Shown: positions 38,718-61,535 of the stretch, in pieces
Layout: each line of letters begins with the position of its first letter
Numbering within the stretch: position 1 is the stretch's first letter
Source of the DNA: an uncultured bacterium
GTDB taxonomy: Bacteria; Patescibacteriota; Minisyncoccia; Phycocordibacterales; Phycocordibacteraceae
DNA length: 64,000 nt
Direction of reading: 5' to 3'
NCBI GenBank assembly: GCA_937879955.1
Contig: CALFMK010000002.1
Span: 1,175-65,174, forward strand
Notes under the pieces: model-generated
Told to the model about the DNA's origin: nothing
What the model saw: only the letters and a program-made list of their open reading frames with translations
Database searches by the model: none
Translations under genes and position numbers: made by a program

Positions 38718-39995
38718 ATGCCAACTGCGAAGAAGCCAGCCAAGAAGGCTGCACCGAAGAAAGTAGTGAAGAAGGCCGCTCCTAAGAAGGCGGTGAAGAA
38801 GGCTGCGCCTAAGAAGGCAGCCAAGAAGGCGCCTGCGAAGAAGGCAGCGGTTGCGAAGAAGCCGACCAAGAAGGTCGCGCTCAAGAACATCGTCCGCGCG
38901 GCAGCGACAGGCGCGAAGGCGAAGGCCGCAGCCGTGAAGGTAGACAAGGCCGACGTCCTCATCAAGAAGGGCAAGGAGCGCGGCTACATCACGTACTCGG
39001 AGATCCTCAAGGAGTTCCCGCACGTGGAGGACGACATCATGTTCCTCGACGAGCTCTACGAGAAGTTCACCGCCGCCGGCATCGACATCCTCGAGGGCGG
39101 CATGCTCGCCGATGACACGGACCAGTACCTCGCTACCCGCAACATAAAGAGCCGCGACTCAGGCGCGTACGACTCCATCCAGATCTACCTCCGCGAGATC
39201 GGCCAATACCCGCTCCTCACGGCTTCCGAAGAGCGCGAGCTCGCGCAGCGTATCGAGAAGGGGGACGACGAGGCGCGCAATATCCTCGCCCGCTCGAACC
39301 TCCGCCTCGTGGTATCGATCGCAAAGAAGTACGTAGGCCGGTCTCCTGACCTGACCCTTCTCGACCTCATCCAGGAGGGCAACCTCGGCCTCTTCAAGGC
39401 CGTCGACAAGTTCGACTGGAACAAGGGATTCAAGTTCTCGACCTATGCGACGTGGTGGATCCGCCAGGCCATCACCCGCGCGCTCGCGGACCAGTCCCGC
39501 ACCATCCGCATCCCGGTGCACATGGTGGAGACCATCGCGAAGTACAAGCAGGTGTCCCGCCGCTTGGCACAGGTGCTCGGCCGCGATCCGCAGCCTGAGG
39601 AGATCGCCATCGAGATGGGCGTCGAGGTGGACAAGATCTACCAGATCGAGAAGATCAACCAGGACACGCTCTCGCTCGAGAACCCTATAGGCTCCGATGA
39701 CGACCAGAACTCCACCCTCGGTGACTTCATCGCGGACGATAAGATCCCGTCTCCTATCCAGGAGTCCTCGGAGCGCATCCTCGGCGAGCAGGTCCGCGAC
39801 ATCCTCGAGGACCTCTCTCCGAAGGAGCGCAAGATCCTCGAGATGCGCCACGGCCTCCTCGACGGCGTGTACCACACGCTCGAGGAAGTGGGTAAGGAGT
39901 TCGGCGTCACCCGCGAGCGTATCCGCCAGATCGAGGCGAAGGCGCTGGAGAAGATCAGGACGCATGAGAAGTCCCGTCGTTTGAAGAGTTACTAA
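38718..39995 (+). CDS. rpoD: RNA polymerase sigma-70 factor with a histone-H1-like Lys/Ala-rich N-terminal repeat tract
   Basis: Regions 2-4 ([41 protein letters not shown]-terminal [23 protein letters not shown]); the N-terminus is [18 protein letters not shown]... repeats. Confidence 0.9.
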
Positions 39996-39999
39996 ACGA

Positions 40000-40027
40000 A
40001 AGACCCGCGAGAGCGGGTCTTTTGTTT
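40000..40027 (+). terminator. intrinsic terminator after rpoD (aagacccgc-gaga-gcgggtcttttgttt); also the left edge of the low-GC island
   Basis: Hairpin plus T-run read directly; base composition switches from high GC to AT-rich immediately downstream. Confidence 0.6.
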
Positions 40028-41053
40028 ATGGAACAGATAAAATTTTCCTGGATTTTTAATAAAAAATCAGTCTATTGCGATTTAAGAAACGAAGTCCATA
40101 CTTGCTTCATGAAGGAAAGGGATTCGGTTCGGCCACAGAACAATCAAGAAGGCAAATTAAAAAAGCAACAGAAAAATTCTGTTGTGAATAAGCAATCGCT
40201 GTCGCTTGTTGGAAATACCATCGATAGTATTGATGTACGATTGAGCTATAAAATTGTAGAGCTTTTTTCTGAGGGTCTGTACGCAAGTCCTAATAAGGCA
40301 GTTGAAGAGCTTGTTGCTAACTCATTTGATGCTGGTGCAAGGAAAGTCTTAGTACTTCTCTCAAAAGATCTGCATGGGCAAGATGCATCAATTGCAGTTA
40401 TTGATGATGGCGAGGGTATGAATGCAGCAGGTTTGAAGCAGCACTGGCTTATAGGGGTAAGCGGGAAACGAAAGGAGCATCCGCTACCGAATGGCAGGCA
40501 GCAAATTGGAAAATTCGGAATTGGTAAACTGGCAACCTACGTTCTTTCAAACCAACTCACACATGTAAGTAAGCGTGGAGGTAAATATTTTGCGACCTCG
40601 ATGAATTATGCAGACATTGACCAGCGAGTCGGTAAGGAAATAGAACCAAAGACTCCAATGAAGATTCCACTTCACCAGCCAACAGAAGCTGAAGTTATGG
40701 AGCTCCTAAGGCCCTGGACTGAGACTGCAGCCTTCAAAACCTCTGGTATGAAACTTTTCGGAAAAGGGTCTCCCAAGTCGTGGACAGTGACTCTCATGAG
40801 CTCTCTAAAAGACAAGGTTCATGACATTAGGCCAGGTCACCTGGAGTGGGTTCTTAGAACCGCCATGCCGCTTCGACCAGATTTTGAAGTTTGGATGAAT
40901 GATAAGAAACTAGCTCCAAGTAAACAAGGAAAGGGAGTGCTTAAGGAGTGGGTGCTTGGAAAAGATCTTATAGAGCTGCCAAAGCCAGCGTCAAAGGAAA
41001 TTGAGATATCAGAGGATAAGAGCGTAGATAGTGCTGATCCTAAACGTTTCTGA
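40028..41053 (+). CDS. GHKL (Bergerat-fold, MORC/MutL/Hsp90-like) ATPase N-terminal part; ends at a TGA that is in frame with the next ORF
   Basis: N-box ELVANSFDAGARKVLVLL; Gly-rich G1/G2 region IDDGEGMNAAGLKQHWLIGVSGK...GKFGIGKLATYV; low GC; start uncertain (ATG 40028 or 40109). Confidence 0.6.
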   Translation: MEQIKFSWIFNKKSVYCDLRNEVHTCFMKERDSVRPQNNQEGKLKKQQKNSVVNKQSLSLVGNTIDSIDVRLSYKIVELFSEGLYASPNKAVEELVANSFDAGARKVLVLLSKDLHGQDASIAVIDDGEGMNAAGLKQHWLIGVSGKRKEHPLPNGRQQIGKFGIGKLATYVLSNQLTHVSKRGGKYFATSMNYADIDQRVGKEIEPKTPMKIPLHQPTEAEVMELLRPWTETAAFKTSGMKLFGKGSPKSWTVTLMSSLKDKVHDIRPGHLEWVLRTAMPLRPDFEVWMNDKKLAPSKQGKGVLKEWVLGKDLIELPKPASKEIEISEDKSVDSADPKRF

Positions 41054-41107
41054 CTGTTAACACCCCAGCTTGGGCGTATTACGGGATATGTTGAGGCTTA
41101 CAAGGAT

Positions 41108-42730
41108 TTGCTGACCGGAAAATCTGACGAAATAGGAAGGAGCTACGGCTTCTTCGTATATGTATTTGATCGTCTCGTTAATGTCGAGGATGGTCACTTT
41201 GGAATCTCACCTGATGAACTTCGGCATGGAACCTTTGGTCGCTTCAGGGCGGTGGTCCACATGAACGGTCTTGATAGGCTTTTAAGGGCAAACCGTGAAG
41301 CACTTATGGAAGGACCGGAACTTGAAGAGGCAAGAAATATCTTGCGAGGCATCTTTAACTCCGTTCGTTCTACAATTGAGAGTCAGGTAAGTCTCGAAGA
41401 ACCTGGAGCACAACTCGCCCGAAAGCTTGCTGCAAGCCCCGGAAGCTTGTCTCGATCACCAATCGTCGAGCTGGCACGTGCTGTGGTGGAGAAGCGTAGT
41501 AATGCACATTATCTTTCCGTACCTGATTTAAAGAACGATTCTGAACGAGAAGCTTTTATAAGCGAGCTTGAATCTCGCGCTGCGGATCCAGAAAAATTCG
41601 TTTCTGGACTCACTCTCGATTACAACGGTAGTCCCGATGAAGGTTTTGCAAAATATGATACCCAAACGGCAAACCTACGTATAAACGCCTGGCATCCACT
41701 TGTCGCAACTTTCCACGACGAATTCTCAAGTAAAACGAGCGGACAGCCTCTCGAGGTCTTGGCAATGGCCGAAGTACTTGCTGAGTCGCATCTGCACGCA
41801 CTCGGGGTTCCTGGAACTACAATTAGTGACTTTCTCGCAACACGCGATAGGCTGCTCCGGTATCTTGCAAATGAATCCGGACATCAAAGTGCATTTTCTG
41901 TTGCAGCCTCATTAAAAGAAGCAAGAAATAATCCTGACTCTTTAGAAGATAAGGTATGCGCTGCTTTCTCAAGTCTTGGATTTGAAACCATCCCTATTGG
42001 AGGTAAGGGTAAGCCGGACGGGGTTGCAACAGCACATCTTTCCGCGGGTGAAGACGGACAGTCTCGTCGTTACTCCGTGAGTCTTGAAGCAAAAAGTAAA
42101 GAGAAGGATGGAGTCAGGGTCGCCAATGCTAGTGTACGAGTGTCGGCAATTGCGCGCCAGCGCGATGAGTATGCCTGTAACCACGCAATTATCGTCGGTC
42201 CGTCCTTCTCAACGACAGCGGGCGAGAGCTCAGCACTCGCAAAAGAGATTAGCGCTGACCGAGAAGGTACGGAGGCAAGGGGTAATCGGAAGACCATTAC
42301 GCTTATAACAGTCGATGATTTGGCACGGCTCGTAACACTCCGTCCCCTTAAACAGCTCGGTCTTTCTGAGATCCGGAGCCTTTTTGAGTGTAGGTTACCC
42401 GAGGAAAGCAGGGAATGGGTAGATGGTATCCAGGCAAAGATTGTCGAAAAGCCACCGTACAAAGAGATCATTGGAGCTATTCACAAGCTCCAGAAAGACT
42501 TTAATCAAGCAAGTGTTAAATATTCGGCATTGCGCGTAGAGCTCTCGCATCTCTTACCGCCCATTAAATTTGATAGAGATGATGAACTTATCGAGCTCTG
42601 TAATGCGCTGGCGCAAATGTCATCAGGAGCCATGCATGCCAATACTGGAACAGTTGAGCTCGATCAGAGTAGGGAAAATGTAATTACCGCTATCGAAGCT
42701 GCGATGAGGGAGTATAATGGCCAGAGTTAA
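41108..42730 (+). CDS. continuation/partner of the GHKL ATPase (540 aa) with a C-terminal PD-(D/E)xK-like nuclease motif
   Basis: Same reading frame as 40028..41053 across the single stop; the 18 codons after the TGA are open (LLTPQLGRITGYVEAYKDLLTGK...); near the C-terminus GGKGKPDGVA ...~20 aa... YSVSLEAKSK fits D...E.K; no ATG until residue ~52. Confidence 0.5.
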   Translation: MLTGKSDEIGRSYGFFVYVFDRLVNVEDGHFGISPDELRHGTFGRFRAVVHMNGLDRLLRANREALMEGPELEEARNILRGIFNSVRSTIESQVSLEEPGAQLARKLAASPGSLSRSPIVELARAVVEKRSNAHYLSVPDLKNDSEREAFISELESRAADPEKFVSGLTLDYNGSPDEGFAKYDTQTANLRINAWHPLVATFHDEFSSKTSGQPLEVLAMAEVLAESHLHALGVPGTTISDFLATRDRLLRYLANESGHQSAFSVAASLKEARNNPDSLEDKVCAAFSSLGFETIPIGGKGKPDGVATAHLSAGEDGQSRRYSVSLEAKSKEKDGVRVANASVRVSAIARQRDEYACNHAIIVGPSFSTTAGESSALAKEISADREGTEARGNRKTITLITVDDLARLVTLRPLKQLGLSEIRSLFECRLPEESREWVDGIQAKIVEKPPYKEIIGAIHKLQKDFNQASVKYSALRVELSHLLPPIKFDRDDELIELCNALAQMSSGAMHANTGTVELDQSRENVITAIEAAMREYNGQS

Positions 42731-42732
42731 TT

Positions 42733-43992
42733 ATGCCGGCAAAAGCAAGTACAACACAGAAGAAGGGTAAGACAATGTACGATGCACTGGGACGTGACTC
42801 AGTGCACCCCTTTCCGGCCCGAATGGCCCCGACAATCGCGCTCGAAGTACTAGAGAACTCAAAGAGACCTCTCAGGATCCTCGACCCAATGATGGGTTCT
42901 GGGACAGTCATCGCTCTTGCGCGAGCGAATGGACATCAAGCAAGAGGAATTGATATAGATCCTCTGGCGGTGCTACTTTCGAAGGTATGGACGACTGCGG
43001 TTGATATTGAACACATAAATACCGTAGCTAAGAATGTTCTGGCCATAGCAGAAAAAAGTTTCCCTAATATGCCCCTGGAGAAGGCGTATCCAATAGAATC
43101 TGATGATGAGACGAAAGAGTTCATTGACTATTGGTTTGATCCCATTGTCCGTAGGCAAATGACTTCTCTTTCAAACGCGATCCTAGCCGTTGAGGATGAG
43201 GACGAGCGAGATGTACTTTGGTGTGCGCTTTCTCGCTTAATTATCGTGAAGAGCTCAGGCGTATCACTCGCGATGGATCTATCACATAGTCGTCCGCATA
43301 GAGTCTACGAAGAAGCTCCAGTAAGGCCGTTTGATAAATTTCTACCCATGGTTCTGAAGGTGACAAAGAGTTGTCTTGATAAGAAAGACAAGGCTCGCGG
43401 ACCTGTAGCGAAGGTTGCAAGGGGTGATGCTCGAAAACTCCCGATTAGAAAATCTTCGATAGATATCGTGCTTACTTCTCCTCCCTATCTTAATGCTATT
43501 GATTACATGCGTTGTAGTAAATTTTCATTGGTGTGGATGGGGTATAAAATTGGTGAACTAAGAAAGCTCCGTACCGATAGTATTGGTAGTGAATTAAGCA
43601 GTGGTATTGCTAACGAAGATGAGAGTGTGAAGCTTGTAGTAAAGGGATTAAATCTACAGCCTCGACTGACAACACGGAATCAGGCCATACTTTCTCGATA
43701 TATATATGATATGACCTCTTCAATAAAAGAGGTTGCAAGAGTATTAGTCCCAAATGGAAAGGCAATTTATGTGGTCGGTGAAAATACGATCAAGGGAACC
43801 TATATAAGGAATTCTGTTGTAATGGAAATTGTTGCAAAGCAAGTAGGGCTAGCGCTGACAGAAAAAAAAGTTCGAATTTTACCTGCCAATCGTCGTTATC
43901 TTCCGCCTCCAACAAAAAGATCAAGCAAGGCTTCGATGGATGCGCGTATGCGGAGAGAAGTTGTAATGACCTTCACGAAACTGGCGATTTAA
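42733..43992 (+). CDS. SAM-dependent amino (N6-adenine or N4-cytosine) DNA methyltransferase
   Basis: Motif I DPMMGSGTV near the N-terminus; motif IV VLTSPPYLNAIDY about 200 aa downstream; ATG 2 nt after the upstream stop. Confidence 0.8.
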   Translation: MPAKASTTQKKGKTMYDALGRDSVHPFPARMAPTIALEVLENSKRPLRILDPMMGSGTVIALARANGHQARGIDIDPLAVLLSKVWTTAVDIEHINTVAKNVLAIAEKSFPNMPLEKAYPIESDDETKEFIDYWFDPIVRRQMTSLSNAILAVEDEDERDVLWCALSRLIIVKSSGVSLAMDLSHSRPHRVYEEAPVRPFDKFLPMVLKVTKSCLDKKDKARGPVAKVARGDARKLPIRKSSIDIVLTSPPYLNAIDYMRCSKFSLVWMGYKIGELRKLRTDSIGSELSSGIANEDESVKLVVKGLNLQPRLTTRNQAILSRYIYDMTSSIKEVARVLVPNGKAIYVVGENTIKGTYIRNSVVMEIVAKQVGLALTEKKVRILPANRRYLPPPTKRSSKASMDARMRREVVMTFTKLAI

Positions 43993-44050
43993 TATTAGTG
44001 AACTTGTCAAATTCTGTGCCAGGATTATCTATCTGATAAGATATTTATGA

Positions 44051-44398
44051 ATGGCCGATATAGAAAAACTCAAGGAAATGGTGGTCCAATTCCGAGACGA
44101 TCGGGACTGGAAGCAATTTCATACTCCTAAAGACCTGGCCATTTCCATGGCTCTCGAGGCTGGGGAAGTCCTTGAGCATTTCCAGTGGAAAGACGAAAGG
44201 GCCCAATGGGCACATGGTGAGGCCAAAAGGGAGGATATTGGCGACGAGCTCGCCGACGTTCTGTATTGGGTTCTTCTCCTAAGTAACGATCTGAATATTG
44301 ATATTTCAGAGGCTTTTGTTCGCAAGCTCGAAAAGAATAACGAGAAGTATCCCGTAGAAAAGGCGAAGGGAAGAAACGCGAAGTACACAGAACTCTAG
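44051..44398 (+). CDS. MazG-like nucleoside triphosphate pyrophosphohydrolase (all-alpha NTP-PPase)
   Basis: WKQFHTPKDLAISMALEAGEVLEHFQWK...IGDELADVLYWVLLLSNDLNIDISEAF matches the MazG/HisE-type EExxE/D motifs; 115 aa. Confidence 0.75.
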   Translation: MADIEKLKEMVVQFRDDRDWKQFHTPKDLAISMALEAGEVLEHFQWKDERAQWAHGEAKREDIGDELADVLYWVLLLSNDLNIDISEAFVRKLEKNNEKYPVEKAKGRNAKYTEL

Positions 44399-44400
44399 CC

Positions 44401-45966
44401 ATGTCCGAGATCGAAAGCTTTGAATTTAAGAGAAGCGAATCGGATAAAATTCGAAAATATAAATTCGGAAGCAATTGGCCCGTTGTGTATCTTCTCGAAG
44501 ACGGGAAAGAGCTCTATGTGGGGCAGACCACTCGTGCCTTTGTGCGCAGCAAGCAGCATCTCGATACCCCGTCCCGGGCAAAGCTAAAGAAGATGCATAT
44601 AATCAGTGACGAGGAATTTAATATCTCAGCTGCTCTCGATATCGAATCCTGGCTCATTCAGTACCTTTCAGCGGAAGGTACGTTTCAGCTACAGAACTCC
44701 AATAAGGGTCTGAGGAATCATGAGTACTTTGATCGTGAGAAGTACAAGGCGAAGTTCGAGCTTATTTGGGAGAAGCTCAGGGCAATGTCGCTTGCTACCC
44801 AGGACCTCGTACAGCTCAGGAATAGTGACGTATTCAAATACTCTCCCTATAAGTCTCTTAGTGACGATCAGCTGATCATTGCCACTGATCTCTTTAAGAA
44901 GATCGCGAAGAACGAACAGAAAACGTATCTCATTAATGGAAAGCCAGGAACCGGAAAAACCGTCTTGGCAATCTATTTGATGAAGTACCTTGCGCAGGAG
45001 AAGGAGACACGGCATTTGAAGATTGCTCTTGTGGTGCCCATGACCTCGCTGCGGCAGACTATACGGAACGTCTTCAGGAAAATCCCTGGTCTCAAGACCA
45101 CTCAGGTTATCGGTCCTGCTGACGTAACGAGAGGAGACTACGATCTACTTATTGTGGACGAGGCCCATAGGCTCAAACAGCGCGTAAACATAGCCAATTA
45201 CCAGTCTTTTGATGTGGTTAACAAAAGGCTCGGTTTTGGTAACGAAGGCACCGAACTCGACTGGATACTCGCTTCTTCAAAACAGCAGATACTCTTTTAC
45301 GACAGGAACCAGAGTGTACGCCCATCCGATGTTTCCGAGCAACGATTCTCTCAACTGAAGGCTGATTTCTATAACCTAGCCAGCCAGCTGAGAGTGGAGG
45401 GAGGAGAGGAATATCTTGAATATGTAGACGGTGTTCTCAGCCTCAGAAATACCTCCTATGTACCTCAGGACTATGACTTCGCTATCTATGAGGACATTCG
45501 GGAGATGATCTCTGATATCAAGAAAAGAGACGCTGAGACTGGTCTGGCTCGTGTAGTGGCAGGATATGCCTGGGACTGGAAGACAAAGAACGGGGGAGAG
45601 GAATATGATATCGAGATCGATGGTCTAAGGCTGATCTGGAACTCAACAACGAGTGATTGGGTTAATTCCAAGAACGCTGTTAATGAAATAGGTTGTATCC
45701 ATACTATCCAGGGCTATGACCTCAATTATGCTGGCGTTATTATCGGACCTGAGATCTCATATGATCCCGAGCAGCACCGTATCGTTGTTGATCCAAAGAA
45801 GTATAAGGACATAAACGGAAAGCGATCCGTTGAGAATCCTGAAGAACTTGAGCGATATGTCATTAATATCTACAAGACCCTTCTCACGCGTGGGATTAAG
45901 GGAACCTACGTATATATCGCAGATGAAGAGCTGAGGAAGCTTTTTCGAAAGAATCTAATCGCTTAA
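44401..45966 (+). CDS. GIY-YIG nuclease domain fused to a DUF2075-type P-loop ATPase/helicase-like domain
   Basis: N-terminal VVYLLEDGKELYVGQTTRAFVRSKQH (GIY...YIG...R...H); Walker A GKPGTGKTV; Walker B DEAH-like LLIVDEAHRL; ATG 3 nt after the MazG stop. Confidence 0.75.
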   Translation: MSEIESFEFKRSESDKIRKYKFGSNWPVVYLLEDGKELYVGQTTRAFVRSKQHLDTPSRAKLKKMHIISDEEFNISAALDIESWLIQYLSAEGTFQLQNSNKGLRNHEYFDREKYKAKFELIWEKLRAMSLATQDLVQLRNSDVFKYSPYKSLSDDQLIIATDLFKKIAKNEQKTYLINGKPGTGKTVLAIYLMKYLAQEKETRHLKIALVVPMTSLRQTIRNVFRKIPGLKTTQVIGPADVTRGDYDLLIVDEAHRLKQRVNIANYQSFDVVNKRLGFGNEGTELDWILASSKQQILFYDRNQSVRPSDVSEQRFSQLKADFYNLASQLRVEGGEEYLEYVDGVLSLRNTSYVPQDYDFAIYEDIREMISDIKKRDAETGLARVVAGYAWDWKTKNGGEEYDIEIDGLRLIWNSTTSDWVNSKNAVNEIGCIHTIQGYDLNYAGVIIGPEISYDPEQHRIVVDPKKYKDINGKRSVENPEELERYVINIYKTLLTRGIKGTYVYIADEELRKLFRKNLIA

Positions 45967-46040
45967 TTGGGAGCTTTCAGACTTTATCAAAAATTTATCT
46001 AGATTTGATATCCTCCTGTCTTAGGCTAATACAATCAACC

Positions 46041-46673
46041 ATGAATAAGACGGTACTTATAGCGATTGCAGCCTTCCTCATTCTTGTCGGTGGCATGTAT
46101 TACTTCACCCGCTCGTCGGAGGAATCAGCTACCGTGGTAGATACTTCAGGTTGGAATACCTATACAAATACTACCTATTCATATTCGCTTTCATACCCTG
46201 ATGGCCTCAGACTGGGATACCCGGGTATGGCTGAAACGGTGCGGATCGAGGAGACTGACGATCTTATGATTGATGCTGATCTTAAGCCAGCCATCTTTGG
46301 TGTGACAGCATATACCGTTGATACAGCACATGACTCTCCGGCCATTAAGGAGCGAAACAGTTTGGCCACTCTACCACTTAAAGAGTTTGCTGAAGGTGTC
46401 CGACAGCTGCAGGTAAATGACTCAAATTCTTCAATCCAAGATAAAACGGTTGGAGAGTTACAGGAAATTACGTTTGCAGGAAAGCCGGCCTATTCCTTCA
46501 CTCTAAACAAAGCGTTTGTCTCAGATTCACTTGGTAGTGGCTATATTCTCACACCAGAAGATACGAACTTTAATTTCATCTTCGTTGAGAATAAGTTCGG
46601 CCAGAAACTTATGGTTCGGTATCTTGTGAACGATACCGCTGCAGAAGGTATAAAGAATTCATTCAAGCTCTAG
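46041..46673 (+). CDS. hypothetical secreted/anchored protein (low GC)
   Basis: N-terminal TM/signal MNKTVLIAIAAFLILVGGMYYF; no recognised domain; followed by a bidirectional hairpin at ~46690..46725. Confidence 0.5.
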   Translation: MNKTVLIAIAAFLILVGGMYYFTRSSEESATVVDTSGWNTYTNTTYSYSLSYPDGLRLGYPGMAETVRIEETDDLMIDADLKPAIFGVTAYTVDTAHDSPAIKERNSLATLPLKEFAEGVRQLQVNDSNSSIQDKTVGELQEITFAGKPAYSFTLNKAFVSDSLGSGYILTPEDTNFNFIFVENKFGQKLMVRYLVNDTAAEGIKNSFKL

Positions 46674-46751
46674 CGCTGCATTATAATTAATAAAAAGCCC
46701 CCGGCTCTCGAAAGAGAGTCGGGGGTAGTTCGTTAAGAGCTTAGCTCTTGG

Positions 46752-47450
46752 TTATTGGCAGGTGGCTGCGGGGTAATGCATGTTACTGCCGGAATGAAGC
46801 GGGTCTGGAATCAAAGCATACTGGTACCAGTACTCCGTTGCCTGACTCTCAGATCCAGCAAACGGATCACGGCTTGTACCGCTGGCCGACATCGAGCTAC
46901 GTAGCTCGAAGTGTAGGTGAGGTCCGGTGACACTCCCGCTCCTGCCCGAGAGACCGACCAGTGTTCCGCCAGGGCCGCTCACGCAGGTGATCGATTGTCC
47001 GTTGGTGACGTTGACCGAGCTCAGGTGCGCATAGAGCGTGTACCAGCCATCAGCATGCTGAATCCAGACGTGGTTGCCCAGGTTGCTGCCGCAGGACGGA
47101 TTGCCGGTCGCTGGACAGCCTGTCGTTACGGAAGCAACCGTTCCGCTCGCTGCCGCATAGACCGACGTACCAGATGATACGCCAAAGTCCGTTCCTCGAT
47201 GCCTCGGGTTGTTGCCGTAATAGTACGGCGAGGTGGACGGTATGACCGTGGCATCGTAACGAATGTTGGTGTTGGTCGCGTAGGGTGTATGCCAGTGGTC
47301 CATCCATGCCGTAATGCTATACGGCACGTAGGCAAGCGGGAGCCTGTACTTTGTTTGCGCTTGAGCTGCGCTCCCGTTCAAGAACGTGAGAAAAAGCGCG
47401 ACCGCCGCACATAGAGTGGCCAGCAGTCCCTGATTCCTGTAGCTTCTCAT
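46752..47450 (-). CDS. secreted M23 (LytM-type) metallopeptidase
   Basis: Signal peptide; HRGTDFG...GNHVWIQHADGWYTLYAHLS...GLSGRSGSVTGPHLHFEL contains the HxxxD and HxH zinc-ligand motifs. Confidence 0.8.
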   Translation of the reverse strand: MRSYRNQGLLATLCAAVALFLTFLNGSAAQAQTKYRLPLAYVPYSITAWMDHWHTPYATNTNIRYDATVIPSTSPYYYGNNPRHRGTDFGVSSGTSVYAAASGTVASVTTGCPATGNPSCGSNLGNHVWIQHADGWYTLYAHLSSVNVTNGQSITCVSGPGGTLVGLSGRSGSVTGPHLHFELRSSMSASGTSRDPFAGSESQATEYWYQYALIPDPLHSGSNMHYPAATCQ

Positions 47451-47591
47451 CTATACTCTCCAAATATGTAGGTTTGAGGTTGTGTAGATACATAGACTGC
47501 ACTACGGACCCATGCAAGCCCCCTTTGAAAGAACAAAGTTCGCACTATTTGCGAATACCTGACTCGAAATAGTCAGGTGCAGCATCCTACC

Positions 47592-48053
47592 TTACGAAGA
47601 TAAAGAGAAAATAAAGTCGAAATGCTCTGAAGAAACCGGTGTCACTGAAAGCCTCGAACCCGGTTGCAGAATCATCATCTTCCCAAGATGAGAATCTGCC
47701 CTGATGTCAGTCAGCGTAACCGGCACCTCGAGCTTCCGAACGAACGCGATATCAACCAAGTCCCAGATAGGCTTCGCTTCAGTGGCGCGCGGATCATAAT
47801 AGCTGCTCTTCGGGTCGAACTGGGTCGGGTCAGGATAGGGCAGGGAGACAACCTCGGCGATGCCGTAGACGCCTGGCACCTTACAGTTCGAATGATAGAA
47901 GAGCACATGGTCTCCGGGCTTCATCTCGCGCATATAGTTCCGGGCCTGAAAGTTCCGGACTCCGGTCCAAGCAGTCTTCCCGTCCTTCTTGAGATGGTCG
48001 ATTCCGTAGCTCTCGGGCTCGGATTTCATGAGCCAATATCGCTTTTCAGACAT
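47592..48053 (-). CDS. EVE (PUA-like) domain protein
   Basis: YWLMKSEPESYGIDHL...WTGVRNFQARNYMREMKPGDHVLFYHSN is the EVE/Thump-like PUA signature; start at MSEKRYW, the ORF-track N-terminal extension is unlikely. Confidence 0.75.
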   Translation of the reverse strand: MSEKRYWLMKSEPESYGIDHLKKDGKTAWTGVRNFQARNYMREMKPGDHVLFYHSNCKVPGVYGIAEVVSLPYPDPTQFDPKSSYYDPRATEAKPIWDLVDIAFVRKLEVPVTLTDIRADSHLGKMMILQPGSRLSVTPVSSEHFDFIFSLSS

Positions 48054-48111
48054 TGTTTCCAGTATATATAAAATCCAGTTTTTCTTTATATTCCTGAGAT
48101 ACATTGCAGCA

Positions 48112-48531
48112 ATGAATACTGCAAAAAAGGAAAGGGACTTCAGAAAGCGTGTCACAAGACGTCTGAAAAGGAGTGACCCTGTTCGGTGGGAAGGTCTTTC
48201 TGAGGAAGAACGGTTGAGTGCCGTAGAGGTCTATGCAGATCTTGTGGACCCAAAGAATTTGGATCCCTTGTCCCTTATCAATGAGACATGGAATCGTGCC
48301 GATGCAGTAGACAATCTAATGATGGGTGTGCTGCTCGGGCTTTTCGGAACTGCTGCAGGCAATGTCATTGAAAATTACCTTGCTCCCGCCGGGATAGTGT
48401 ATGAATTCTTCGCGGTAACATTCTTCCTTGGTATTTTCTTTATCTTCAACTGGATACCGGGAGAGATTCTCAATCGAAGCTATAAGGAAGGTCGCTTGCT
48501 CGAGAAGCTCTTAAGGGAGAAGAAATCGTAA
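48112..48531 (+). CDS. hypothetical membrane protein (low GC)
   Basis: Two C-terminal hydrophobic segments; divergent from the EVE gene across an AT-rich 58-bp gap. Confidence 0.4.
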   Translation: MNTAKKERDFRKRVTRRLKRSDPVRWEGLSEEERLSAVEVYADLVDPKNLDPLSLINETWNRADAVDNLMMGVLLGLFGTAAGNVIENYLAPAGIVYEFFAVTFFLGIFFIFNWIPGEILNRSYKEGRLLEKLLREKKS

Positions 48532-48835
48532 ATCGTATAAGAAAACCGGCCGCCCCAAAGGAGCGGCCGATGTACTAACACAAACGCTTACGCTTCCATG
48601 TCGAAGCGGAGCCTCTCTTCGGAAGCCGCTCTCGCCGAGGACCCGGGGTCCAAGCAGGCCGGTGCTCCTTCACGATGCGAGGCGCCGTAATCGCTGTCGT
48701 AGCCAGAAGGCTCGTGAATACGAGCCCGATGATCAATCTCATATTGGTCCCTCCGATTTCCTCGTACAGACTGCCTCTCGCGAGCCTCCTCGTCAACAAA
48801 GAAAGAGGCCGCTCCAGAGGAGCGGCCTCGGCCTT

Positions 48836-49126
48836 TCAGTGCACCGTCGCGAACGTATACAGATAGAAGCAGGTGCCGATTGCCGGTAGGGCGAGCAGAG
48901 GCAGCGCATCGAGATTCTTGAGACTGCCTTCGACGTGGGTGCGCGGACAGCTCCATTCCTCGCGGTTGCTCACGAGCGGCCCGATCTTCGCCTCGATGAA
49001 CACGGGCCTGCCGAGCTCCTTCTCCATGGCTTCACGAACCTGGTCGATGGAAAGGTTCGCGGGGTAGTGGCCGAGCCGGAGCTCGAATTCCACTTTGGTA
49101 TCGATAGGTGCTCCTTCGAAAGCCAT
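48836..49126 (-). CDS. hypothetical small protein (96 aa)
   Basis: RBS ggaga 7 nt before the ATG; it is the C-terminal part of a longer shadow ORF; no recognised domain. Confidence 0.4.
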   Translation of the reverse strand: MAFEGAPIDTKVEFELRLGHYPANLSIDQVREAMEKELGRPVFIEAKIGPLVSNREEWSCPRTHVEGSLKNLDALPLLALPAIGTCFYLYTFATVH

Positions 49127-49213
49127 CCTCGGTTCTCCTATGTGCTGGAGGCTGCTCTGCCTAGGGTTGTACCTCCCCGGGAAGGAAGCGTCAAACGTAG
49201 GTATAGTGGGAGG

Positions 49214-49783
49214 ATGACCGTGCCGTACGAGATACGCGAATCCACCCGCGCCAAGCGCCTCGGCCTCACGGTGCACCCGGACGGGCGGGTAACCGTCACG
49301 AAGCCCGTACGGACTCCGCTGAAGAAGGCGGAGCAGTTTGCCGCCAAGCACGAGGACTGGATCCTGGCGGCCCAGGAATCCTTCCGGAGGAGGGCAGAGA
49401 AGCGGAAGAAGGCCGGCATAGAGCAGGTGCAGCTCCCGCGCCCACGGAAGGGATCGAACGCGTACAAGGAGGCCAGAGAGGCCGCCCGAGCGCTCGTATC
49501 GGAGCGCCTCGCATATTTCAATCAGCTCTACGGCTTCCGGTACGGATCCATATCCATACGGGACCAGAAGACCCGATGGGGAAGCTGCTCGGCTGCCGGG
49601 AACCTCTCCTTCAACTATCGTCTCGCATACCTGCCCGAGCGGCTCCAGGACTACGTCGTGGTGCACGAGCTCTGCCACGTGAAGGAGCACAACCATTCCC
49701 CGAGGTTCTGGGACCAGATGACGCGAGCGCTGCCGGACCATGTCGCTCTCCGGAAGGAGCTCCGTACCCGCTACGCGGCCTGA
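49214..49783 (+). CDS. YgjP/DUF45-family zinc metallohydrolase (WLM/SprT-like HExxH)
   Basis: YVVVHELCHVKEHNHSPRFWDQM motif near the C-terminus; 190 aa; the ORF-track upstream extension is not supported. Confidence 0.7.
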   Translation: MTVPYEIRESTRAKRLGLTVHPDGRVTVTKPVRTPLKKAEQFAAKHEDWILAAQESFRRRAEKRKKAGIEQVQLPRPRKGSNAYKEAREAARALVSERLAYFNQLYGFRYGSISIRDQKTRWGSCSAAGNLSFNYRLAYLPERLQDYVVVHELCHVKEHNHSPRFWDQMTRALPDHVALRKELRTRYAA

Positions 49784-60242: not shown

Positions 60243-60608
60243 TTAGTAGCCGCCCTGGTAGCCACCACGGTCGCCGCCGCCGAAGCCTCCGCGGTTCCCA
60301 CCGCCGAAGCCGCCGCCGCGGTTGCCGCCGAAGCCGCCCTCGCGAGGAGGACGGTCGCCCTGTGGGCGCGCCATGGAAACGGAGAGCATGCGCCCGTCGA
60401 ACTCCTTGCCATCCCAACGGTCGATTGCCGCCTGGCCCTCTGCCTCGGAAGACATCTCGACGAAGCCGAATCCGCGAGAGCGGCCGGTCATACGATCGCT
60501 GATAATGCTTGCGGATACGACCTCACCTGCTTCCTGGAAAGCGGTGCGGAGCTCATCCTCGGTCGTGCGATACGGGATACCGCCGACGTACAGTTTGCAT
60601 GTTGCCAT
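60243..60608 (-). CDS. RRM-type RNA-binding protein with a Gly/Arg-rich (RGG-like) C-terminal tail
   Basis: RNP2 LYVGGI and RNP1 RGFGFVEM; C-terminal GGFGGNRGGGFGGGNRGGFGGGDRGGY; start at MATCKL, the ORF-track extension to 60992 is unsupported. Confidence 0.75.
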   Translation of the reverse strand: MATCKLYVGGIPYRTTEDELRTAFQEAGEVVSASIISDRMTGRSRGFGFVEMSSEAEGQAAIDRWDGKEFDGRMLSVSMARPQGDRPPREGGFGGNRGGGFGGGNRGGFGGGDRGGYQGGY

Positions 60609-60827
60609 GTGGCTTGTGGATACCTGGATAACCTCGCTGATGCCGAACGCTAGGAGCAATTTGGAGTTTCGGCGAGTTGTCAACAGTATGCGGTAAATAT
60701 CCCAAAAACGCAATTGACAAAAGGGTTTATGGGGATAAGGAAACCGTCCGAGGAAATATTGCGAAATATATGAAAGTATGTTACAATATTCCCGGACGTT
60801 CCGTTCAGCAGCATAGGGAATCAGCGC

Positions 60828-61535
60828 ATGCATCATGCGAAAGTACGGGTCACCGAATACGGGTACCCGAAAGCGTACTCCGGCCTGAAGCCGCTCGAGG
60901 AGCAGATCTGTATGCTCCAGAAGAAGGTGAGCCATTGGGCCGATATCGAGCTCGACGTCGAGCCTGCGCTCGCGTTCGCGCGTGAGCTGCAAGCGTCTTC
61001 ATCGCTCCCGGACGGGGCCGAAGGCCGCGCCGCGATCATCGCGCCCGGCATCCGTGGCGACCACCAGCACGACGTCGCGCTCGCGCTCGAGCTCTTCCAC
61101 GCCATGAAGAGCACGGCGACGCCCGAGGACTTCGATCCCGCGGCGTTCCGTCTCGACGAGCGGACCGAGCGGATGCTCGATGCGCTCTGCGAGATGCAGG
61201 CCGGGCCGATCCTCATCCTGCCCGTGCAGTTCGGCAAGCGGCACGCGAAGCGCATCGACACGGACGTCGTGAGCGGGTTCGGGGACCATCCCGAGTTCGC
61301 CCTCGACCTCCTGAGCATGGTCTCGCTCCTCATCACGCATCCGGAGCGCCTGGCCGATTACAGCGCGCTCGGGATCAGCTGTCCGGGCGACGAGTACGAC
61401 TACCTGCGCACCAGCACGTTCGAACGCTCGCTGATGATGCTGGCCCAGGCCGGCCAGATCAAGCTGCGCTCGCGGCCGAAGGACTACAACTCGACCGACC
61501 ACGGCGTGGTGACAGGATTCCTGCACGCAGCCTGA
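60828..61535 (+). CDS. hypothetical protein
   Basis: 235 aa ORF; no recognised domain. Confidence 0.4.
   Translation: MHHAKVRVTEYGYPKAYSGLKPLEEQICMLQKKVSHWADIELDVEPALAFARELQASSSLPDGAEGRAAIIAPGIRGDHQHDVALALELFHAMKSTATPEDFDPAAFRLDERTERMLDALCEMQAGPILILPVQFGKRHAKRIDTDVVSGFGDHPEFALDLLSMVSLLITHPERLADYSALGISCPGDEYDYLRTSTFERSLMMLAQAGQIKLRSRPKDYNSTDHGVVTGFLHAA

What the first reader, a model, noticed from the sequence alone, without database searches (positions are those of the whole stretch)
40000..48560. Low-GC island inserted right after the rpoD terminator carrying an ATPase-nuclease-methyltransferase-MazG-GIY-YIG/DUF2075 cluster (candidate undescribed defence system)
Base composition drops abruptly from about 65% GC to AT-rich at 40022, exactly after the rpoD terminator. 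It recovers near 48.56 kb. Within the island five genes are tightly coupled, with gaps of 2-55 nt and ATGs 2-3 nt after the upstream stop. They are a MORC-like GHKL ATPase, a 540 aa protein with a PD-(D/E)xK-like C-terminus, an amino DNA methyltransferase, a MazG-like NTP pyrophosphohydrolase, and a GIY-YIG nuclease fused to a DUF2075 P-loop ATPase. Downstream are a secreted protein, an M23 peptidase and an EVE modified-base reader. A YgjP/DUF45 hydrolase and a UvrD-nuclease fusion follow immediately outside the island. GHKL/MORC-type ATPases next to methylases have been proposed as restriction-modification-like modules. This exact five-gene arrangement does not match any named system I know (BREX, DISARM, Gabija, Septu, Hachiman, Nhi and others). 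No integrase, transposase or tRNA is visible, so the insertion mechanism is unclear.
Basis: partly seen in the sequence, partly recalled or inferred. Interest (0 to 1): 0.85.

Follow-up and report, generated by a model that had tools for sequence, protein, structure and literature searches.

The report
Defence-gene hotspot downstream of rpoD
The low-GC stretch after rpoD is real, but it is not one five-gene system: it is a cargo slot in a candidate-phyla-radiation bacterium, filled in relatives mostly with restriction systems and helicase-type genes, and here it holds two unrelated two-gene modules, one of them a restriction-modification-like pair whose nuclease gene carries a premature stop.

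Summary
GC falls from 0.64±0.03 to 0.47 between the rpoD terminator (about 40.0 kb) and about 48.55 kb, and the domain calls are largely right.

The interpretation as one undescribed five-gene system does not hold.
- The "GHKL ATPase" and the "540-aa protein" are one ~873-aa gene. An in-frame TGA (41051-53) interrupts it at a near-invariant Gly. More than 120 homologs are single ~850-aa proteins.
- The MazG-like gene is a dCTP pyrophosphatase 1 (DCTPP1) homolog. It sits directly upstream of the DUF2075 helicase in 72 of 76 loci and never with the GHKL gene (0 of 83). This is a separate, Nhi-like pair.
- EVE, YgjP and UvrD-nuclease are backbone genes. One close relative has rpoD abutting EVE with nothing between. 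Others carry type I, IIG/ISP or III restriction-modification systems, other helicase or DUF2075 genes, or unknown genes there.

The host is a Paceibacterota (CPR) bacterium. Both modules are uncharacterised variants of known kinds. Interest is moderate.

The parts
38718..39995 (+). rpoD. Backbone gene and left border of the variable slot.
   Evidence: 94-98% identical to rpoD of relatives L085, L086, L168-L170. Best named hits are Patescibacteria, Paceibacterota and Parcubacteria.
39993..40028 (.). rpoD terminator hairpin. DNA similarity to relatives ends here.
   Evidence: Inverted repeat I3: 16-nt arms, 94% complementary. In the alignment with L086 and L168-L170, conservation stops at the stop codon and hairpin.
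40109..42730 (+). One ~873-codon gene, interrupted by an in-frame stop. It encodes a MORC/Hsp90-like GHKL ATPase, a middle region, a HindIII/FokI-like PD-(D/E)xK nuclease and C-terminal winged-helix domains.
   Evidence: The read-through translation has at least 1650 homologs. The top 120 are single 845-918-aa proteins, 61-68% identical over 96-100% of the query. Bergerat ATPase motifs E67xxxN71xxD74, D99-G101xG103 and G134xxG137xG139 are invariant. Foldseek hits TRAP1, MORC2 and MORC3 at E 6e-9 to 1e-7.
41051..41053 (+). In-frame TGA that splits the GHKL-nuclease gene.
   Evidence: It aligns with a Gly that all 11 homologs share (RFG[LIF]). GGA makes up 27 of the 77 codons in this gene that are one substitution from TGA. 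There is no other in-frame TGA in this gene or in the MTase. TGA is used as a stop elsewhere in the window.
41933..42199 (+). Core of the PD-(D/E)xK restriction-endonuclease domain (residues about 609-697).
42733..43992 (+). Amino (N6-A or N4-C) DNA methyltransferase, intact, starting 2 nt after the nuclease gene.
   Evidence: Pfam N6_N4_Mtase 2.7e-8; PADLOC MTase_II 2.8e-33 across residues 23-387. The sequence shows LDPMMGSGT (AdoMet-binding motif) and TSPPY (catalytic motif). A homolog is present in 77 of 84 loci, directly downstream of the GHKL gene in most close relatives.
44051..44398 (+). MazG-like all-alpha NTP pyrophosphohydrolase, homologous to DCTPP1/RS21-C6.
   Evidence: PF12643 at 1.1e-17. 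PDB dCTP pyrophosphatase 1 (6sqw, 2a3q) at E 1.8e-20 and 4qgp at 1.5e-20. PHROG 'pyrophosphatase' at 4e-19.
44401..45966 (+). Probable GIY-YIG nuclease (residues about 25-110) fused to a DUF2075/Schlafen-group-3-type SF1 helicase. Nhi-like architecture.
   Evidence: PF09848 at 1.2e-67 over residues 174-508. At least 7897 homologs. GIY-YIG evidence: Pfam E 0.046; hhalign puts the VY...YVG motif in register with E. coli UvrC but with low probability; Y30, Y39, G41, R49, H53, E82 and N99 are invariant. A MazG homolog is directly upstream in 72 of 76 loci and in Bacillus mycoides plasmid p479.
46005..46673 (+). Protein of 222 aa or fewer with an N-terminal hydrophobic segment. Function unknown. 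Variable cargo.
   Evidence: Only a weak PsbP_2 hit (E 1.4e-3). No homolog in any of the 167 related loci compared by tblastn. GC3 0.44.
46752..47450 (-). Secreted M23 metallopeptidase. Not syntenic with relatives.
   Evidence: PF01551 at 4.4e-23. Absent from the same slot in relatives. GC3 0.66.
47592..48053 (-). EVE/PUA-like domain protein. Backbone gene and right border of the slot.
   Evidence: PF01878 at 2e-57. 67-78% identical to EVE genes in the same position and orientation in L086, L168 and L169. In L169 it abuts rpoD.
48112..48531 (+). Protein of about 139 aa that looks membrane-associated from its sequence, divergent from EVE. Semi-conserved.
   Evidence: 39% identical to the 139-aa gene that follows EVE in L168. 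No family hit.
48935..49783 (+). YgjP-like (DUF45) metallopeptidase-fold protein. Backbone gene. The true start is probably about 90 codons downstream of 48935.
   Evidence: PF01863 at 1e-45. 65-83% identical to 183-189-aa genes in L168-L170, with alignment starting at residue 90-98.
50711..53557 (+). UvrD/PcrA-type helicase fused to a PD-(D/E)xK (Cas4/AddB-like) nuclease. Backbone gene.
   Evidence: Pfam UvrD-helicase, UvrD_C and PDDEXK_1. 83% identical to L169 and L170, 64% to L086.

Best explanation
The 40.0-47.6 kb segment is horizontally acquired cargo. It sits in a lineage-specific variable slot between the convergent 3' ends of rpoD and an EVE-domain gene in a Paceibacterota (CPR/Patescibacteria) genome. 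It is a mosaic, not one system.

Module 1 (40109-43992) is a two-gene restriction-modification-like unit.
- The methyltransferase marks host DNA.
- The partner is a single ~873-aa enzyme with an N-terminal MORC/Hsp90-type GHKL ATPase, a HindIII/FokI-type PD-(D/E)xK cleavage domain and winged-helix DNA-binding domains.
- Inferred mechanism: ATP-driven dimerisation of the GHKL domains on unmodified DNA brings two FokI-like cleavage domains together for a double-strand cut.
- In this genome the nuclease gene carries a TGA at a conserved Gly codon, so as sequenced it is probably inactive. The methyltransferase is intact.

Module 2 (44051-45966) is an independent, tightly conserved operon.
- It encodes a DCTPP1-like MazG pyrophosphatase and a (probable GIY-YIG) nuclease fused to a DUF2075 SF1 helicase, an architecture like the Nhi and Nhi-like anti-phage proteins.
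- Inferred mechanism: the helicase-nuclease attacks replicating foreign DNA, while the pyrophosphatase hydrolyses dCTP or modified dCTP that phage replication needs.

The secreted protein and the M23 peptidase are further unrelated cargo. EVE, YgjP and UvrD-nuclease are resident backbone.

Shown here: gene structure, folds, gene linkage and synteny. Inferred: all enzymatic activities, the defence role, and uptake of cargo by homologous recombination through the conserved flanks.
For: One gene, not two:
- Same frame with a single TGA.
- The 120 best homologs are single ~850-aa proteins covering 96-100% of the read-through.
- The TGA aligns with a Gly shared by all aligned homologs.

Folds:
- GHKL domain matches MORC2, MORC3 and TRAP1.

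Linkage:
- MTase with GHKL in 77 of 84 loci; MazG, DUF2075 and EVE in 0 of 84.
- No third gene recurs in more than 9 of 53 canonical loci. The recurrent neighbours are type I hsdS and hsdM.
- MazG directly upstream of DUF2075 in 72 of 76 loci; GHKL in 0 of 83. The same pair occurs on a Bacillus mycoides plasmid.
- MazG is a DCTPP1 homolog at E 1.8e-20.

Hotspot (the same rpoBC-dnaG-rpoD ... EVE/YgjP/UvrD backbone in relatives):
- Empty site in L169.
- Type I restriction-modification in L168.
- Type IIG/ISP in L170.
- Type III in L173.
- DUF2075 fused to Peptidase_S24 in L175.
- SNF2, other helicases and DUF2075 in L085.
- Unknown genes plus MazG-DUF2075 in L086.
- Unknown genes in L174.
- GC also dips after rpoD in L085 and L086.
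- Cargo GC3 is 0.39-0.54 against 0.84-0.93 for the backbone.

Host: rpoD hits are named Patescibacteria, Paceibacterota or Parcubacteria.
Against: - No activity was measured for any protein.
- The GHKL middle region (residues 271-431) was modelled poorly, so the S5/transducer domain is unconfirmed.
- The nuclease gene is interrupted here, so module 1 may be only an orphan methylase in this genome.
- GIY-YIG is below significance in every statistical test tried.
- Neighbours of MazG-DUF2075 in 17 metagenomic loci are mostly housekeeping genes (SecDF, ABC transporters, pilus and cell-division genes), with only a few restriction-type genes. The defence context for module 2 is therefore weak outside this hotspot.
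- The hotspot sample is only nine genomes.
- No att sites or recombinase were found, so the insertion route is unproven.
Confidence: 0.75

Rival explanations
1. GHKL ATPase, nuclease, methyltransferase, MazG and GIY-YIG/DUF2075 form one new multi-gene defence system that works as a unit.
For: All genes are on one strand with short gaps of 2-58 nt and share low GC. PADLOC assigns them to no named multi-gene system.
Against: The two halves do not co-occur in 84 GHKL loci or in 83 DUF2075 loci, apart from one locus with an MTase homolog. Each half is by itself a tightly conserved pair. GC3 also differs between the halves: 0.39-0.40 against 0.53-0.54.
Confidence: 0.04
2. The MazG-DUF2075 pair is not an immune module. 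It is an accessory DNA-repair and nucleotide-pool sanitation pair: a DCTPP1-like enzyme removes non-canonical dCTP derivatives, and the nuclease-helicase processes damaged or mis-incorporated DNA.
For: The closest solved relatives are dCTP pyrophosphatase 1 enzymes, which are known from the literature as house-cleaning enzymes (my knowledge). The 150 neighbouring ORFs in 17 loci are mostly housekeeping. The family is very large and well conserved, at 43-77% identity.
Against: Presence among close relatives at this locus is patchy, and the gene occurs in three different forms. GC3 is strongly foreign. The pair sits in a slot that otherwise holds restriction systems. Its architecture parallels the experimentally validated Nhi and Nhi-like proteins. 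It occurs on Bacillus plasmids next to zeta toxin and HNH genes.
Confidence: 0.25
3. The GHKL-nuclease is still functional. The TGA would then be an assembly or sequencing error, a minority allele of the population, or a stop that is read through, and module 1 would be an active restriction-modification system in this organism.
For: There is only one lesion. Both halves keep full-length similarity of 61-68% to intact homologs, with no frameshift. The window appears to come from a 65.5-kb contig of uncultured origin whose proteins are found in NCBI/ENA (and, for P0121, Logan), where single-base errors or polymorphisms are possible.
Against: TGA is an ordinary stop in this window, for example at the end of YgjP. 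There is no restart codon with a plausible ribosome-binding site; the first in-frame start is a TTG 18 codons downstream. Loss of the nuclease with retention of the methylase is a common fate of restriction-modification systems (my knowledge). Several other loci also show broken GHKL genes.
Confidence: 0.25
4. The TGA is a relic of a donor that uses genetic code 25 (Gracilibacteria/Absconditabacteria, where TGA encodes Gly), because it sits exactly on a conserved glycine.
For: The TGA aligns with a conserved Gly. Code-25 lineages belong to the same superphylum as the host (my knowledge).
Against: There is one TGA against 63 ordinary Gly codons in this gene and 18 in the MTase, with no other in-frame TGA. 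GGA is 35% of all codons one substitution from TGA here, so a nonsense mutation at a Gly is unremarkable. The closest named homologs are annotated to Kaiserbacteria, Pseudomonadota and Phycisphaerales, lineages not known to use code 25 (my knowledge).
Confidence: 0.03
5. The segment is a degraded prophage or integrative element rather than a recombination hotspot.
For: Low GC. An M23 peptidase that hits phage tape-measure and endolysin PHROGs. In other genomes the GHKL-MTase pair lies next to serine or tyrosine recombinases.
Against: No integrase, transposase, tRNA, att-like repeats or phage structural genes were found. Eight relatives carry different cargo at the same junction, and one has a clean empty site.
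Confidence: 0.05

Closest known systems
MORC/paraMORC GHKL ATPases of restriction-modification operons (Iyer, Abhiman and Aravind 2008, PMC2292703), especially paraMORC3 with a C-terminal restriction-endonuclease-fold E-D-ExK domain
   Same: GHKL ATPase with intact ATP-binding motifs. C-terminal restriction-endonuclease-fold nuclease with E...D...ExK. Operon link to a DNA methylase. Patchy distribution across bacteria and archaea that suggests lateral mobility.
   Different: That work is computational only. No profile of paraMORC3 was available here, so family identity was not tested. The endonuclease-bearing paraMORC3 genes were described as standalone, whereas this family is almost always MTase-linked. 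It also carries winged-helix domains after the nuclease.
BbrUII/HgiDII family Type II restriction enzymes (NCBIfam NF050001) and REBASE-derived PADLOC REase_II models PDLC03419 and PDLC03485
   Same: These named restriction enzymes have an N-terminal GHKL-type ATPase domain. They are the best-scoring named families for this protein.
   Different: The match is to the N-terminal roughly 130 residues only: 72 bits against a cutoff of 550, and E 1.6e-9 in PADLOC. It is not a member of these families.
FokI, HindIII and BspD6I restriction endonuclease catalytic domains
   Same: [quoted passage not shown] FokI-type domains cut only after dimerisation, which fits a GHKL dimerisation gate (inference).
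   Different: Sequence identity is only 11-19%. Those enzymes have no ATPase domain.
GHKL-Shedu (VcSduA, Shedu type I-D; PMC12137116)
   Same: One polypeptide with an N-terminal GHKL ATPase and a C-terminal PD-(D/E)xK nuclease. The proposed role of the ATPase is control of the nuclease.
   Different: No DUF4263 Pfam hit and no PADLOC Shedu hit. No entry described as Shedu appears among the listed structural matches. Shedu works without a methyltransferase, whereas this family is MTase-linked.
Nhi (S. epidermidis; 10.1101/776245) and Nhi-like (Millman et al. 2022; 10.1101/2022.05.11.491447) anti-phage nuclease-helicases
   Same: N-terminal nuclease plus DUF2075 SF1 helicase in one protein. The PADLOC Nhi model hits the helicase part at E 9.6e-13.
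   Different: Nhi has a PD-(D/E)xK nuclease; here the nuclease is probably GIY-YIG. Nhi and Nhi-like act as single proteins, whereas this family has a conserved DCTPP1-like partner (72 of 76 loci). The library search found no paper containing both the terms DUF2075 and MazG.
dCTP pyrophosphatase 1 (DCTPP1/RS21-C6) and nucleotide-depletion defences (dCTP deaminase, dGTPase)
   Same: The MazG-like protein is a clear DCTPP1 homolog. Depleting dNTPs is an established anti-phage strategy (my knowledge).
   Different: Substrate is unknown. No known depletion system pairs a MazG with a helicase-nuclease.
Defence islands and integration hotspots between conserved core genes
   Same: Variable defence cargo between fixed flanks, an empty site in a relative, and atypical GC.
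   Different: The location (the rpoD|EVE junction) and the host (a reduced-genome CPR bacterium) were not found in the papers searched here. No recombinase is present.

Membership tests
Restriction-modification system (Type II-like) | An endonuclease with a restriction-endonuclease catalytic fold and conserved active-site residues | tested here: met
Restriction-modification system (Type II-like) | A cognate DNA methyltransferase encoded next to the endonuclease | tested here: met
   MTase homolog present in 77 of 84 loci, directly downstream in most close relatives. PADLOC MTase_II at 2.8e-33.
Restriction-modification system (Type II-like) | An intact endonuclease reading frame in this genome | tested here: not met
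   In-frame TGA at 41051-53 at a conserved Gly. A sequencing error cannot be excluded.
Restriction-modification system (Type II-like) | Sequence-specific cleavage that is blocked by the cognate methylation | not testable with these tools
   Needs a methylome and cleavage assays.
BbrUII/HgiDII restriction enzyme family (NCBIfam NF050001) | Whole-protein score at or above the curated cutoff of 550 bits | tested here: not met
   72.3 bits, covering only residues 29-156.
MORC/paraMORC GHKL ATPases | Bergerat-fold ATPase with motifs I-III | tested here: met
   PF13589 at 2e-21. Invariant ExxxNxxD, DxGxG and GxxGxG. Foldseek matches to MORC2 and MORC3.
MORC/paraMORC GHKL ATPases | An S5-fold transducer domain after the GHKL domain | tested here: inconclusive
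   Residues 271-431 have pLDDT below 50. The conserved GFFVYVxxRLxN block resembles, from my recollection, the S5 region of MORC-type ATPases, but it was not compared with any reference.
MORC/paraMORC GHKL ATPases | Sequence membership in a specific paraMORC family (1-5) | not testable with these tools
   No paraMORC profiles were available. Only the description in PMC2292703 could be compared.
Shedu (DUF4263 nuclease) | A DUF4263 / SduA nuclease domain | tested here: not met
   No Pfam hit on the C-terminal half up to E=1. No PADLOC Shedu hit. No entry described as Shedu among the listed structural matches.
Nhi / Nhi-like | A DUF2075-type SF1 helicase domain | tested here: met
   PF09848 at 1.2e-67, covering 353 of the 354 profile positions.
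Nhi / Nhi-like | An N-terminal nuclease domain | tested here: inconclusive
   GIY-YIG Pfam E 0.046. hhalign against UvrC is in register but has probability 1.2%. A profile against PDB sequences found nothing. The catalytic-type residues are invariant.
Nhi / Nhi-like | A match to the Nhi model over the whole protein, and action as a single gene | tested here: not met
   PADLOC Nhi at E 9.6e-13 over residues 145-330 only. A conserved MazG partner is present in 72 of 76 loci.
MazG-like / DCTPP1 NTP pyrophosphohydrolase | A Pfam PF12643 score above the gathering cutoff, and homology to solved DCTPP1 structures | tested here: met
   64.4 bits against a cutoff of 27. PDB 6sqw and 2a3q at E 1.8e-20.
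Named multi-gene defence systems (BREX, DISARM, Gabija, Septu, Hachiman, MADS, Mza, Dpd, Ssp) | Significant full-length PADLOC hits to the signature proteins | tested here: not met
   Only weak partial hits: MzaB 1e-6, mad2 2.5e-7, mad8 7e-5, SspC 4e-5, DpdE 6e-4.
Defence-island hotspot | The same flanking core genes with different cargo in relatives, plus an empty site | tested here: met
   Window plus eight relatives. L169 is empty. L168, L170 and L173 carry type I, IIG/ISP and III restriction-modification systems. L085, L086, L174 and L175 carry other cargo.

The most novel reading that the evidence does not exclude
Three readings remain open.
- Both modules could be undescribed immune systems. 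One would be an ATP-gated restriction enzyme class in which a MORC-type GHKL clamp licenses a FokI-like nuclease, a possible prokaryotic model for how MORC ATPases act on DNA.
- The other would be a two-component system in which a DCTPP1-like pyrophosphatase (destroying dCTP or phage-specific modified dCTP) cooperates with a GIY-YIG-DUF2075 Schlafen-type helicase-nuclease.
- In addition, the rpoD|EVE junction could be a defence hotspot of Paceibacterota whose unannotated cargo (L086 2791-7465, L174 11544-15577) may hold further unknown systems.
Probability: 0.35. Interest if true: 0.7.

Novelty: new variant of a known kind. Interest (0 to 1): 0.5.

Why it matters
- It corrects a tempting over-reading. 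Tight spacing and shared low GC do not make a single system; co-occurrence across genomes splits this cluster into two independent pairs.
- The GHKL-HindIII/FokI-like nuclease plus methylase pair is widespread. There are at least 1650 homologs, in Acidobacteriota, Planctomycetota, Proteobacteria, Nitrospira, CPR bacteria and archaea. The PADLOC models tried here did not recognise it as a restriction enzyme, and the papers searched here report no experiment on it. It offers a simple bacterial system for studying MORC-type ATPases.
- The DCTPP1-like plus DUF2075 pair links two protein families with human relatives, DCTPP1 and Schlafen. The library search found no paper containing both terms (DUF2075 and MazG).
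- A variable slot, filled mostly with restriction systems and helicase-type genes, next to rpoD in reduced CPR genomes is a practical handle for mining new immunity genes in organisms that cannot be cultured.

Tried and rejected
- Megablast of the whole island against plasmids found no match.
- Profile searches against PDB sequences found nothing significant, either for the nuclease region (A4) or for the DUF2075 N-terminus (A5). The full-length profile (A1) found only weak Hsp90 N-domain hits, and A2 found nothing useful.
- Fold search with the full-length model was dominated by GHKL hits and hid the C-terminus. This was solved by modelling residues 560-873 separately.
- The exact-sequence lookup of the source contig failed. 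Cluster lookup gave no accession or name.
- hhalign of the DUF2075 N-terminus against the E. coli UvrC GIY-YIG domain aligned the right motif but was not significant.
- The search for att-like direct repeats flanking the island found only short chance-level pairs. Promoter and terminator scans were at background level.
- Neighbourhood enrichment for MazG-DUF2075 found mostly housekeeping genes, so it gives no strong defence-island signal.
- The search for a conserved third gene in GHKL-MTase loci found none. The best recurrence is 9 of 53 loci, and those are type I hsdS and hsdM genes.
- Selenocysteine (not checked with any tool; the TGA sits at a conserved Gly) and code-25 explanations of the TGA were considered and judged unlikely.
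- Literature searches for DUF2075+MazG and for MazG-like+anti-phage+helicase found nothing relevant.

Full report
**1. Observation**

The composition change is real and large. Sliding 500-nt windows inside 40000-48560 average GC 0.469 (range 0.398-0.59). The 217 windows outside average 0.641 with sd 0.029, and only one is below 0.55.

The drop starts immediately after the rpoD stop codon (39995) and its hairpin (39993-40028). GC3 makes the contrast sharper. It is 0.84-0.93 for rpoB, rpoC, dnaG, rpoD and UvrD. It is 0.40, 0.39, 0.54 and 0.53 for the four co-directional cargo genes.

- HATPase_c_3 and N6_N4_Mtase (PADLOC MTase_II)
- MazG-like and DUF2075/SLFN-g3 helicase
- Peptidase_M23 and EVE
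- YgjP-like, and UvrD plus PDDEXK_1

No tRNA and no Rfam family occurs in the window.

**2. The first two ORFs are one gene**

ORF 40022-41053 and ORF 41108-42730 are in the same frame. A single TGA at 41051-53 separates them.

The read-through translation has at least 1650 homologs. The best 120 are all single proteins of 845-918 aa, 61-68% identical over 96-100% of the query. In an alignment with 11 of them, the TGA falls on a Gly that all share (RFG[LIF]).

GGA accounts for 27 of the 77 codons in this gene that are one substitution from TGA. There is no other in-frame TGA in this gene or in the methyltransferase. A simple GGA-to-TGA change, or a base-calling error, is therefore the economical reading. 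A code-25 origin is unlikely. TGA is used as a normal stop elsewhere in the window.

**3. What the GHKL protein is**

The N-terminus has the invariant Bergerat motifs ExxxNxxD, DxGxG and GxxGxG. In a full-length model it matches TRAP1/Hsp90, MORC2 and MORC3. The middle part (residues 271-431) was modelled poorly.

A separate model of residues 560-873 is confident (pLDDT 83.7, pTM 0.77). Its matches are:
- then winged-helix domains of Cdc6/ORC and histone H1

The conserved E613, P636-D637 and E660-A-K662 lie where the catalytic residues of this fold belong.

The best-scoring named sequence families are the BbrUII/HgiDII restriction enzymes (NCBIfam) and two REBASE-derived PADLOC REase_II models. 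These match only over the GHKL N-terminus and far below cutoff. There is no DUF4263/Shedu signal.

**4. The conserved unit is two genes**

I fetched 84 loci that encode relatives of this protein. They come from Acidobacteriota, Planctomycetota, Proteobacteria, Nitrospira moscoviensis, Paceibacterota, Kaiserbacteria and archaea.

A homolog of the window's methyltransferase is present in 77 of them, directly downstream on the same strand in most close relatives. Homologs of MazG, DUF2075, EVE and the secreted protein are present in none. None of these loci lies near rpoD, EVE, YgjP or UvrD.

No third gene recurs in more than 9 of 53 canonical loci. The recurrent neighbours are type I hsdS and hsdM. 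Elsewhere the pair sits next to serine or tyrosine recombinases.

This is the signature of a mobile two-gene restriction-modification-like module. It is the kind predicted computationally for MORC/paraMORC ATPases by Iyer et al. 2008. The mechanism I propose is inference: ATP-driven GHKL dimerisation on unmodified DNA juxtaposes two FokI-type cleavage domains.

**5. MazG and DUF2075 form a separate pair**

The 521-aa protein has at least 7897 homologs. About half of the close ones carry an extra Peptidase_S24 domain.

In 80 metagenomic loci plus three found by exact lookup, a homolog of the window's MazG gene lies immediately upstream on the same strand in 72 of the 76 loci with enough upstream sequence. 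The GHKL gene is present in 0 of 83 loci, and the methyltransferase in 1 of 83. The same arrangement occurs on Bacillus mycoides plasmid p479, as 'nucleotide pyrophosphohydrolase' followed by 'DUF2075 domain-containing protein'.

The MazG-like protein is a clear homolog of dCTP pyrophosphatase 1/RS21-C6 (E 1.8e-20).

The N-terminal GIY-YIG assignment rests on three lines:
- invariant Y30, Y39, G41, R49, H53, E82 and N99
- a sub-threshold Pfam hit at E 0.046
- an in-register but non-significant hhalign match to UvrC

It is probable but not shown.

The architecture of a nuclease plus a DUF2075 helicase is that of the anti-phage proteins Nhi and Nhi-like. A fusion of DUF2075 to GIY-YIG has been noted in the literature. 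The library search found no paper containing both DUF2075 and MazG.

The neighbourhoods of this pair in 17 loci are mostly housekeeping genes. A repair or pool-sanitation role therefore remains a serious rival.

**6. The site is a recurrent variable slot, and EVE, YgjP and UvrD are backbone**

rpoD identifies the host as Patescibacteria/Paceibacterota. Eight relatives with 94-98% identical rpoD share the backbone rpoB-rpoC-...-dnaG-rpoD ... EVE(-)-YgjP-UvrD/PDDEXK-DsbA-RNaseH-HisRS. They differ between rpoD and EVE/YgjP as follows:

| Locus | Content after rpoD |
|---|---|
| L169 | Empty; rpoD stop and EVE stop are 3 nt apart |
| L168 | HTH plus type I hsdMSR |
| L170 | A type IIG/ISP enzyme |
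| L173 | A type III mod/res pair |
| L175 | DUF2075 fused to Peptidase_S24 |
| L085 | SNF2 and other helicases plus DUF2075 |
| L086 | Eight unknown small genes plus MazG-DUF2075 |
| L174 | Six unknown genes |

Identity of the window's proteins to these relatives:

| Protein | Identity |
|---|---|
| EVE | 67-78% |
| YgjP | 49-83% |
| UvrD | 64-83% |

DNA similarity to the relatives stops at the rpoD stop codon and hairpin. GC also dips after rpoD in L085 and L086.

No att-like repeats or recombinase are present. Uptake by homologous recombination through the conserved flanks is the likeliest route, but this is inference.

**7. Verdict**

The interpretation as one undescribed five-gene system is not supported.

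The island is a mosaic in a variable slot. It contains:
- a GHKL-HindIII/FokI-like nuclease plus methylase module, whose nuclease gene is interrupted here
- an independent DCTPP1-like plus (GIY-YIG)-DUF2075 Nhi-like pair
- unrelated secreted and peptidase genes

Both modules are uncharacterised variants of known kinds. Interest is moderate. The hotspot, and the two well-conserved but unstudied gene pairs, are the useful leads.

Noticed in passing
L086 2791-7465; L174 11544-15577: In two relatives the same rpoD-downstream slot holds runs of 6-8 ORFs, almost all without a recognisable domain (one has only a faint Hydrolase_like hit). The L086 run is co-directional and low in GC (0.39-0.46). They may be unknown defence genes.
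   Followed up: no
L175 11438-13435 (and P0141, P0142, P0146 and others): About half of the close DUF2075 homologs are ~672 aa and carry a Peptidase_S24 (LexA-like) domain. In L175 this form sits in the rpoD slot without a MazG gene.
   Followed up: partly
L006 8296-9603; L008 7192-8823: In 7-9 of 53 loci the GHKL-MTase pair lies directly downstream of type I hsdS or hsdM genes, so it clusters with other restriction systems.
   Followed up: partly
L053, L055, L062, L063 (about 10-14 kb in each locus): The GHKL-nuclease gene appears truncated, or split by extra DNA, in several other genomes while the MTase homolog remains. This suggests recurrent loss of the nuclease.
   Followed up: no
L121 8216-8548: This is the only one of 83 MazG-DUF2075 loci with a homolog (50% identity) of the window's methyltransferase. 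It lies about 0.5 kb downstream, at the contig end.
   Followed up: no
window 48545-48571 and 48805-48829: Two near-identical GC-rich hairpin terminators on the minus strand, 259 nt apart, at the right edge of the low-GC region.
   Followed up: no
window 38718-38960: RpoD has an N-terminal Lys/Ala-rich repeat tail (PAKKAAPKK...), reminiscent of histone H1-like tails. Its length varies among relatives.
   Followed up: no
window 48935-49783: The YgjP-like ORF extends about 90 codons upstream of where homologs start (183-189 aa), and a long antisense ORF overlaps it. The annotated start is probably too early.
   Followed up: partly
L168 17915-18466: The backbone EVE gene is split into two fragments (85 and 62 aa) in the relative that carries a type I restriction-modification system in the slot.
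   Followed up: no
window 60243-60992 (-), GC dip at about 60.5 kb: This is the only other window below 0.55 GC (0.528). It lies beside a gene for an RRM-type RNA-binding protein with a Gly-rich RGG-like tail.
   Followed up: no
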